This document shows, piece by piece, positions 3,506-3,728 of a stretch of 64,000 nucleotides of DNA (within the stretch, counting starts at the first letter, position 1; every line of letters begins with the position of its first letter). The notes under the pieces were generated by a model. That model was given only the letters and a program-made list of their open reading frames with translations. It ran no database searches and was not told the DNA's origin. Both the position numbers and the translations under genes were made by a program. Origin of the DNA: Eledone cirrhosa (Eukaryota); the NCBI GenBank assembly GCA_964016885.1, contig OZ024747.1, positions 15,686,001 to 15,750,000 on the forward strand, given 5' to 3'.

Positions 3506-3728
3506 ATAGGAACGAGTAGGACCCCGACGGCTGAGCTCAAGCCGTTTCGACGGCTAGTTCTGGACTAAAATCAATGGTTTTAGTCCAGAATTAGCCGTCG
3601 AAACGGCTTGAGCTCAGCCGTCGGGGTCCTACTCGTTCCTATTACCCACTCTACTACTCTACTACCCTAAGTATTGAGTACTTTGGTGCGTTATAGTCCA
3701 CCTGGTTCCTTGCCACATTTCCTTCGTT
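3506..3728 (+). mobile_element. Fold-back element, family B copy 1 (3' half-hammerhead)
   Basis: Palindrome 3506-3642 and tail 3643-3728; GAAA-CGGC-loop-GCCG-UC-GGGGUCC at 3600-3629. Confidence 0.88.

What the first reader, a model, noticed from the sequence alone, without database searches (positions are those of the whole stretch)
3506..3728. Family B: the palindrome axis lies inside hammerhead stem II, leaving two half-ribozymes
Seen: in copies at 3506, 12636 and 15921 each arm has the 3' half of a hammerhead: UAGCCGUC-GAAA-CGGC-loop-GCCG-UC^GGGGUCC, with a full stem III and GUC triplet. There is no CUGANGA. The hairpin centre is where the stem II loop would be, and central stem length differs between copies. 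Inference: cDNA synthesis stalls after copying stem II, folds back on that hairpin and self-primes second-strand synthesis. The ribozyme's own structure would then set the inversion point, a concrete mechanism for PLE inverted ends.
Basis: partly seen in the sequence, partly recalled or inferred. Interest (0 to 1): 0.82.

Follow-up and report, generated by a model that had tools for sequence, protein, structure and literature searches.

The report
Penelope stubs start inside their ribozyme
These mirror-image repeats are tiny head-to-head stubs of a Penelope-like jumping gene that keep only the back half of its hammerhead ribozyme, likely because two DNA copies each run off a capped RNA start inside the ribozyme loop and are then joined, which makes the unsolved copying mechanism of these elements testable.

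Summary
The palindromes are real. Each arm holds the 3' half of a hammerhead, and a parent with a complete motif exists: a 3.6-kb Penelope-like element with Hydra-clade protein motifs and a U3-A8 core (UUGANAA), not CUGANGA. The proposed fold-back on stem II is not supported. Arms stop at one base in loop II, the A of an initiator-like TYAGTY. They often carry a non-parental G there (7,108 G against 1,195 A). Either arm can reach furthest, 8 of 60 insertions have arms sharing no sequence, and junctions look end-joined. Best reading: two cDNAs, primed at the element's two fixed 3' sites on both target strands, run off a capped start in loop II and are joined head to head. No RNA data were available. 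The inverted-plus-tail layout is published. This scan noted similar run-off and cap readings before on other DNA (e1-9594321, e1-9960851, e1-7857997).

The parts
3509..3572 (-). Copy 1, short arm (inverted): runs from the fixed short end (+58) back to 5 nt upstream of the loop II start A, ending in a G when read in the element's sense
   Evidence: the G here cannot count as evidence because its closest relatives were picked by likeness to this centre
3573..3577 (.). Copy 1, 5-nt spacer between the arms, not found at this place in parent copies (junction insert)
3578..3639 (+). Copy 1, tailed arm, ribozyme half: inferred start A (+1) at 3582 in loop II; stem II 3' strand 3592-3599; GAAA 3600-3603; stem III 3604-3620; GUC with cut site 3622/3623; stem I 3' strand to 3639
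3640..3728 (+). Copy 1, tail (about 80 nt, here with an 8-nt duplication); in tandem parents it continues into the ORF leader
3420..3508 (.). (TA)n target, left flank of copy 1 (right flank 3728-3752)
12634..12899 (.). Copy 2, older subfamily B2. Tailed arm on - (12634-12801), short arm on + (12804-12899). Both arms pass the loop II start (A at 12840); the + arm holds both strands of stem II. An exception to the main pattern
15921..16118 (.). Copy 3: tailed arm on - (15921-16059), short arm on + (16061-16118). Both arms end at the loop II start A, with one extra base at 16060 (G in the tailed arm's sense)
23456..23553 (+). Degraded family member: partial inverted short arm joined to a partial tail

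Best explanation
These are short head-to-head insertions of a Penelope-like retroelement with Hydra-clade motifs, and they likely arise when two cDNAs each run off a capped RNA 5' end inside hammerhead loop II and are end-joined. SHOWN: a 3.6-kb tandem parent with RT, CxCX5C linker, GIY-YIG and a complete type I hammerhead motif (U3-A8 core); insertion in (TA)n; one arm ending at +58 and one at +138; arm 5' ends piling up at one A in loop II; an excess of non-parental G before that A; variable junctions with chance-level microhomology or inserts. INFERRED: (1) the A is a Pol II start in an initiator-like TYAGTY, so the RNA begins with only the back half of the ribozyme; (2) the element's protein cuts both strands of (TA)n and primes reverse transcription internally at +58 on one strand and +138 on the other, as shown in vitro for another PLE; (3) on the 5' copy of these sites the cDNAs are only 58 and 138 nt long and copy the cap as an extra base; (4) the two ends are trimmed and ligated head to head. 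Priming at the same sites in the downstream repeat would give the long inverted copies.
For: Hard 5' limit: of 128 arms in the sample not chosen by centre, 104 end within -4..+13, 4 end in the next 40 nt upstream and 20 read through the core. Furthest end is +1 or +2 in 26 of 60 insertions; 2 of 60 pass -5. Genome-wide 36,256 arms reach +1 and at least 5,685 reach -7. The TYAGTY is kept 12 nt before the same anchor in five subfamilies with different loop II sequences; 5 bystander B2 arms also start there. Extra G: 7,108 G vs 1,195 A before +1; 0 of 136 intact arms have G there; one base downstream G is the rarest letter, 17 of the first 100 (counted by hand). 28 of 52 G cases are not templated by the partner arm; G is 28 of 40 non-parental untemplated bases at +1 vs 5 of 24 at +2, in class-selected samples. 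An extra G marks cap copying in L1 (PMC11702581, passage). Two primings: 58 of 60 insertions pair one short and one tailed arm; the further arm is short in 30, tailed in 20, tied in 10; in 8 of 60 the tailed arm stops at +62 to +115 and shares nothing with the short arm. One insertion (L240) has arms of two known haplotypes, 3 linked differences. Overlap of 2 nt or more in 4 of 34 direct joins, the chance level; 26 of 60 have inserts. Both strands extended and two internal RT starts equal to the tail: PMC11167929. Promoter inside the pLTR: PMC2377424 (passages).
Against: No RNA evidence: the start site and cap are inferred from DNA only. In the small unselected local sample the G excess is not visible (4 of 13 untemplated bases at +1, 3 of 9 at +2). 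Scaled untemplated T (about 3,960) equals G (about 3,830), although T is the parental base in three subfamilies. The Fisher test uses samples enriched by class, so its p-value is not a clean test. Arms share a haplotype in 105 of 110 insertions (random 24%), which fits one RNA or one source locus but equally fits fold-back copying. Two cDNAs sharing +1..+58 on one RNA need strand displacement, which is untested. Copy 2 and three close relatives break near -28 to -38, not at +1. At least 6 of the 26 inserts (21 nt or more) are probably parse errors from mutated arms. The sample comes from the first 13.3 Mb of one contig and needed an exact 15-mer. The initiator consensus is recalled, not from a call.
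Confidence: 0.68

Rival explanations
1. One reading: cDNA synthesis stalls after copying stem II, folds back on that hairpin and self-primes the second arm.
For: Centres lie within the stem II/loop II domain; arms are concordant within a copy (105 of 110).
Against: Predicted junction found once genome-wide (exact pattern covering the two main loop variants) against 62,621 arm matches. The 5' strand of stem II is missing from nearly all short copies.
Confidence: 0.03
2. One cDNA runs off (or stalls at) the loop II site, then snaps back on itself by microhomology; the hairpin is later nicked and repaired, which blurs the centre. The 5' limit is real but there is no second priming at the target.
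For: Arm concordance. Self-priming was proposed for PLE palindromes (PMC3846280). Compatible with the extra G.
Against: No microhomology excess; perfect palindromes with no loop (L205, L212); either arm can be longer; 8 of 60 with non-overlapping arms; the second arm always ends at one fixed site (+58 or +138); one two-haplotype insertion.
Confidence: 0.14
3. The 5' limit is not a transcription start: RT stalls at RNA structure in loop II or the RNA is cut there, and two primed cDNAs are joined as in the best reading.
For: +1 lies in or beside a weak apical helix in the two intact copies that fold as a hammerhead. No RNA data.
Against: Position is fixed across subfamilies whose loop II folds differ. 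RT has already crossed stronger stems III and II. A stall or cut gives no reason for the extra G.
Confidence: 0.1
4. Short copies are decay products of long inverted copies (central deletion of unstable palindromes), or copies of a few master palindromes.
For: Long inverted copies exist. The four-T loop variant of copy 1 was not among the first 100 read-through matches, so some short copies may themselves be sources.
Against: Random deletion would not stop at one base or add G; 41 distinct centres among 45 rules out copying of whole palindromes.
Confidence: 0.05

Closest known systems
Hydra clade of endonuclease-bearing Penelope-like elements (PMC8557442, section 11 read)
   Same: C-terminal GIY-YIG, DKT motif, RWR at the RWK position, CxCX5C linker, no cysteine pair between GIY and YIG, CxxC and CxH around the conserved E and N, (TA)n target, hammerhead in the repeat
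   Different: Unit is 3.6 kb (described as generally under 3 kb); core is U3-A8 with a loop II of about 35 nt and a 4-bp stem III; at least 31,000 insertions, mostly 100-200-nt stubs; tree not built
PLE insertion layout with inverted 5'-truncated copy and optional tail (PMC8557442, PMC3846280; passages)
   Same: Head-to-head inverted repeat; tail on one arm only; partial tandems
   Different: Tail is 80 nt, not 30-40; truncation is fixed at one base, not variable; evidence favours two primings over the self-priming proposed in PMC3846280
Anolis Poseidon element in vitro (PMC11167929, main text read)
   Same: Two fixed internal RT start sites bounding the tail; both target strands extended; template not cut by its hammerhead
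   Different: In the parts read, that paper does not link inverted copies to joining of two cDNAs or to a start site inside the ribozyme; different clade
LINE-1 twin priming and cap-derived 5' G (PMC11702581, passages)
   Same: Two primings from both target ends, end-joined inversion junction, extra G at full-length 5' ends
   Different: In L1 the two cDNAs cover adjacent parts of the RNA; here they usually overlap and both reach the 5' end, giving a palindrome
U3-A8 hammerheads of Schistosoma PLEs (PMC4209133, results and discussion read)
   Same: Same compensatory core change; extra base at the 5' end of stem II; copies in opposite strands
   Different: Those are minimal motifs without stem III; here stem III is complete

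Membership tests
Penelope-like element, EN+ | Single ORF with RT followed by GIY-YIG endonuclease | tested here: met
   RT motifs (FDIESYY, SMG..DS.E, YRDDGL, FLDV) and VIYQ...YIGLT read across frameshifted pieces in L151 and L155. Atlas neighbours carry HTH_animal (35-69%) and GIY-YIG (23%) at score 0.95-0.96. Pfam gave no hit on the parent's pieces; no intact ORF was seen.
Penelope-like element, EN+ | Partial tandems forming pseudo-LTRs, inverted 5' copy, tail on one end | tested here: met
   L151 period 3,605 nt; inverted long copies; 58 of 60 short insertions pair one tailed and one short arm
Hydra clade | DKT, RWK-type motif, CxCX5C linker | tested here: met
   HSDKTG, RLRWRTF (R for K) and CNCPDRSSC, against the definition
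Hydra clade | CCHH absent; CxxC and CxH flanking the conserved E and N | tested here: met
   One Cys only between IY and YIG; CNLCSEE and LLNKKDELVTACKH
Hydra clade | (TA)n targeting and a hammerhead motif | tested here: met
   hammerhead is a U3-A8 variant, not the canonical core
Hydra clade | Generally under 3 kb | tested here: not met
   Unit 3,605 nt; a loose trait in the source
Hydra clade | Groups with Hydra RTs in a tree | not tested
   No reference sequences fetched; the paper's supplements were not opened
Type I hammerhead (parent copies) | Core plus three helices with covariation | tested here: met
   96.3% of 240 cells pair, one compensatory pair between subfamilies (15 copies). 96 of 136 intact arms have UUGAUAA or UUGAGAA, 107 of 136 UUGANAA. 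Only 2 of 6 copies fold as a hammerhead at minimum energy, z -0.6 to -1.7. No hammerhead family among the 150 of 240 Rfam matches listed for the window.
Type I hammerhead (parent copies) | Self-cleavage | not testable with these tools
   Nearly all arms cross the cut site; L155 and L084 start at or 1 nt before it. 4 of 7 intact arms of copy 1's subfamily have C3 with A8, a mismatch.
Type I hammerhead (window copies) | 5' half of the core present | tested here: not met
Non-LTR retrozyme | Head-to-tail tandem units, each with a complete hammerhead | tested here: not met
   Head-to-head single insertions with half motifs; definition
MITE or DNA-transposon derivative | Copies share one internal sequence between equal terminal repeats (recalled) | tested here: not met
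   41 distinct centres among 45; unequal ends; RT parent

The most novel reading that the evidence does not exclude
The element's promoter is built into its ribozyme. Transcription starts in loop II, so the 5' end of every RNA carries a half-hammerhead that cannot cut itself, while the complete 3' hammerhead can cut off the downstream priming sites. The dimeric RT is then left with the 5' sites and makes tiny twin-primed palindromes, so the ribozyme acts as a switch between full-length transposition and stub production. The stubs keep start and priming sites and can reproduce as a SINE-like parasite whose centre is rebuilt at each insertion. Tens of thousands of junctions would record the PLE mechanism in vivo.
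Probability: 0.25. Interest if true: 0.78.

Novelty: new variant of a known kind. Interest (0 to 1): 0.5.

Why it matters
How Penelope-like elements form inverted ends and tails, and what their hammerheads do, are stated as open in PMC8557442 and PMC11167929. This family offers at least 31,000 insertions with base-level junctions. They argue against self-priming on the ribozyme and for two target-primed cDNAs joined at a capped start inside loop II, and they give exact coordinates (+1, +42, +58, +138) for CAGE, cleavage and in vitro RT tests. The layout itself is known, and the scan has noted similar stubs elsewhere.

Tried and rejected
CUGANGA parent search: 48 hits, 30 viewed, all junction by-products or unrelated flanks. 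Rfam scan of the window: no hammerhead among the 150 of 240 matches listed. Pfam: no hit on 7 of 8 ORF pieces (the RVT_1 hit in L169 does not align to the parent) and nothing relevant on 6 pieces at E 1. RNA runs: no RNA holder listed. The loop II AG as a splice acceptor: rejected because 36,256 arms keep the A and G and no shared upstream exon appears. Hammerhead cut site as the usual 5' end: no peak at +42 among 430 arms anchored downstream; most rows at +41 to +44 are mutated longer arms. My first clade guess (Neptune) was dropped after reading the Hydra definition. The 30 closest relatives of copy 1 were not used for end statistics because they were picked by centre likeness. Literature searches for a published account (twin priming + Penelope + inversion; octopus + Penelope + hammerhead; palindromic non-autonomous PLE promoter ribozyme) listed none by title or abstract; only listings were seen, and the library omits most subscription papers. 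Two searches for cap-G wording found nothing; PMC7353768 and PMC6431247 held nothing relevant.

Full report
Observation. Window 3507-3641 is a near-perfect palindrome between (TA)n runs, followed by an unpaired extension to 3728. Each arm reads stem II 3' strand, GAAA, a 4-bp stem III, GUC and the stem I 3' strand, with no CUGANGA. Copies at 12634-12899 and 15921-16118 and a fragment at 23456-23553 belong to the family. The window lies on contig C7 of G000, 3.0 Gb. A 15-mer from the arm has 62,621 exact matches against 1 for its control, so there are at least 31,000 insertions. Short-read contigs of public runs show the family and many different centre joints (at most two samples, one study, possibly the source sample).

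The parent. The predicted CUGANGA parent was not found: 48 hits, 30 viewed, none a parent. Relatives of copy 2 continued upstream without symmetry and showed the missing half: a stem I 5' strand, the core UUGAUAA and a stem II 5' strand. A pattern built on that core gave 703 matches (4 of the first 100 are tail junctions, not parents). Among 136 intact arms in my loci, 84 have UUGAUAA, 12 UUGAGAA and none CUGANGA. U3-A8 is a known compensatory core in Schistosoma PLE hammerheads (PMC4209133, parts 1-2 of 4 read). On 15 copies from five subfamilies 96.3% of cells pair, with one compensatory pair. Only 2 of 6 copies fold as a hammerhead at minimum energy; the other four prefer a hairpin over the GAAA. 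Activity is untested. Parents occur as 3,605-nt tandems (L151) and as long inverted copies. Their broken ORF encodes an RT, a CxCX5C linker and a GIY-YIG domain, with DKT, RWR, CxxC and CxH motifs. These match the Hydra clade definition (PMC8557442, section 11 and passages; supplements not opened). Pfam found nothing on the parent's pieces. The Atlas gave HTH_animal and GIY-YIG neighbours. No tree was built.

Fold-back on stem II must leave the parent's own loop at the centre. That junction occurs once in the genome. In short copies the apparent 5' strand of stem II is the mirror image of the 3' strand. In long copies the inversion lies hundreds to thousands of bases upstream, for example arms from 3666 to 1108 and from 2323 to 3747 of the reference in L156. 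The model is not supported.

Where arms end. I fetched the first 100 matches of the 15-mer on contig C1 plus bystanders and mapped arms on subfamily majorities. I call +1 the A of a TYAGTY motif in the 3' part of loop II, 12 nt before the anchor; the spacing is the same in all five subfamilies. Of 128 arms, 104 end between -4 and +13, 4 end in the next 40 nt and 20 read through the core. Ends at +10 or later are inflated by mutations near the anchor. Of 69 truncated insertions 60 had a parsed partner; 9 did not and are left out of the pair counts. The furthest end is +1 or +2 in 26 of 60 and passes -5 in 2. Genome-wide, 36,256 arms reach +1 and 5,685 reach -7 (a lower bound because the pattern misses subfamily S2). 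The 3' ends are also fixed: the flank begins at +59 in 48 of 67 short arms and at +139 in 39 of 55 tailed arms. The short end coincides with the end of the extended stem I. Copy 3 has both arms at +1. Copy 1 ends at -5 and -4, near a second initiator-like motif. Copy 2 is an exception, breaking at the base of stem II.

Extra G. No intact arm has G before +1 (0 of 136), yet 7,108 arms do, against 1,195 with A, the other non-parental letter. One base downstream, G is the rarest letter (17 of the first 100, hand count). Of 52 G cases in my loci 28 are not explained by the partner arm. Scaled up, untemplated G is about 3,830, A 960, C 1,670 and T 3,960, T being parental in three subfamilies. Against this, the unselected local sample is too small to show the excess (4 of 13 vs 3 of 9). 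An extra G marks cap copying at full-length L1 ends (PMC11702581, passages). Penelope's promoter lies inside the pseudo-LTR with initiator and downstream elements (PMC2377424, passages), and initiator-like motifs were noted in rotifer pLTRs (PMC3846280, passages). The initiator consensus I compare with is recalled. No RNA holder was listed, so the start is inferred.

One cDNA or two. 58 of 60 insertions pair one short and one tailed arm. The arm reaching further 5' is short in 30, tailed in 20, tied in 10. In 8 of 60 the tailed arm stops at +62 to +115, so neither arm can be a copy of the other; two of these stop just past +58, as if meeting the other cDNA. Direct joins overlap by 2 nt or more in 4 of 34, the chance rate. 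26 of 60 carry inserts, at least 6 of them probably parse errors. Some centres are perfect palindromes with no loop. Centres are almost all different (41 of 45). Arms share their subfamily haplotype in 105 of 110 insertions where both carried a common haplotype (82 of 192 did not and were set aside; random expectation 24%). One insertion, L240, joins two haplotypes differing at three linked sites. Concordance fits one RNA or one source locus and does not exclude snap-back. In vitro, an Anolis PLE protein extends both target strands from two internal RNA sites that bound the tail and uses uncut RNA (PMC11167929, parts 1-2 of 4 read; supplements not seen).

Mechanism. Likely: a tandem copy is transcribed from the loop II A. 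The protein cuts both strands of (TA)n and primes at +58 and +138. On the 5' copy of these sites both cDNAs soon run off the capped end, sometimes adding the cap base, and are trimmed and end-joined head to head. The half-ribozyme results from where the RNA starts, not from a fold-back. Priming in the downstream repeat gives long inverted copies with complete ribozymes. Confidence 0.68. Snap-back after run-off (0.14), a structural stop (0.10), decay or master copies (0.05) and stem II fold-back (0.03) remain.

Known and new. The inverted-plus-tail layout, hammerheads in pLTRs, the U3-A8 core and the internal promoter are published. In the listings and the passages read I saw no account tying the inversion centre to a capped start inside the ribozyme; the library is incomplete. 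The retrozyme preprint 10.64898/2026.07.22.740005 was read in part 1 of 5 only. Earlier notes of this scan reached similar readings in this genome and in two others. I had recorded my reading before those look-ups, and they are not independent support. Verdict: new variant of a known kind, interest 0.5.

Noticed in passing
L084:2303-2455: Both arms start exactly at the hammerhead cut site (+42) and are preceded by sequence from around the ORF start codon, as if copied from an RNA whose cut 5' end was joined to a downstream end (circle or deletion). Single case.
   Followed up: partly
L155:1086-4708: Near full-length copy whose long arm begins 1 nt before the cut site of the upstream repeat; may come from a self-cleaved RNA, or from trimming after run-off.
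   Followed up: partly
window 1316-1699 (also 13179, 16265, 7290-7641): A second palindromic family with CUGAUGA cores in both arms of the first copy and a centre about 90 nt upstream of the core; members sit directly beside copies 2 and 3. 7290-7641 is a long palindrome whose family I did not check.
   Followed up: no
window 1935-2070: Hammerhead-like motif with CUGAUGA, a 9-bp stem II around a loop of about 80 nt, and GAAAC.
   Followed up: no
L183, L184 and other S3 copies: 4 of 7 intact arms of copy 1's subfamily have C3 with A8, a broken core pair; this subfamily is the commonest haplotype among short palindromes in my loci, which are enriched for it.
   Followed up: partly
window 3565-3583; L001-L030: Copy 1 and most of its closest relatives have a four-T loop variant not seen among the first 100 read-through matches, and 9 of 30 share one centre that recreates an initiator-like motif; short copies may act as sources.
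   Followed up: partly
window 3599-3603: The ribozyme's CGAAA sits at +18 to +22 from the inferred start, where a downstream core-promoter motif lies in insects (recalled, untested).
   Followed up: no
window 36796-38185 and 47988-49105: Long inverted repeats with 250-316-nt arms at 95-97% complementarity.
   Followed up: no
window 49198-49268: tRNA match above Rfam's gathering score.
   Followed up: no
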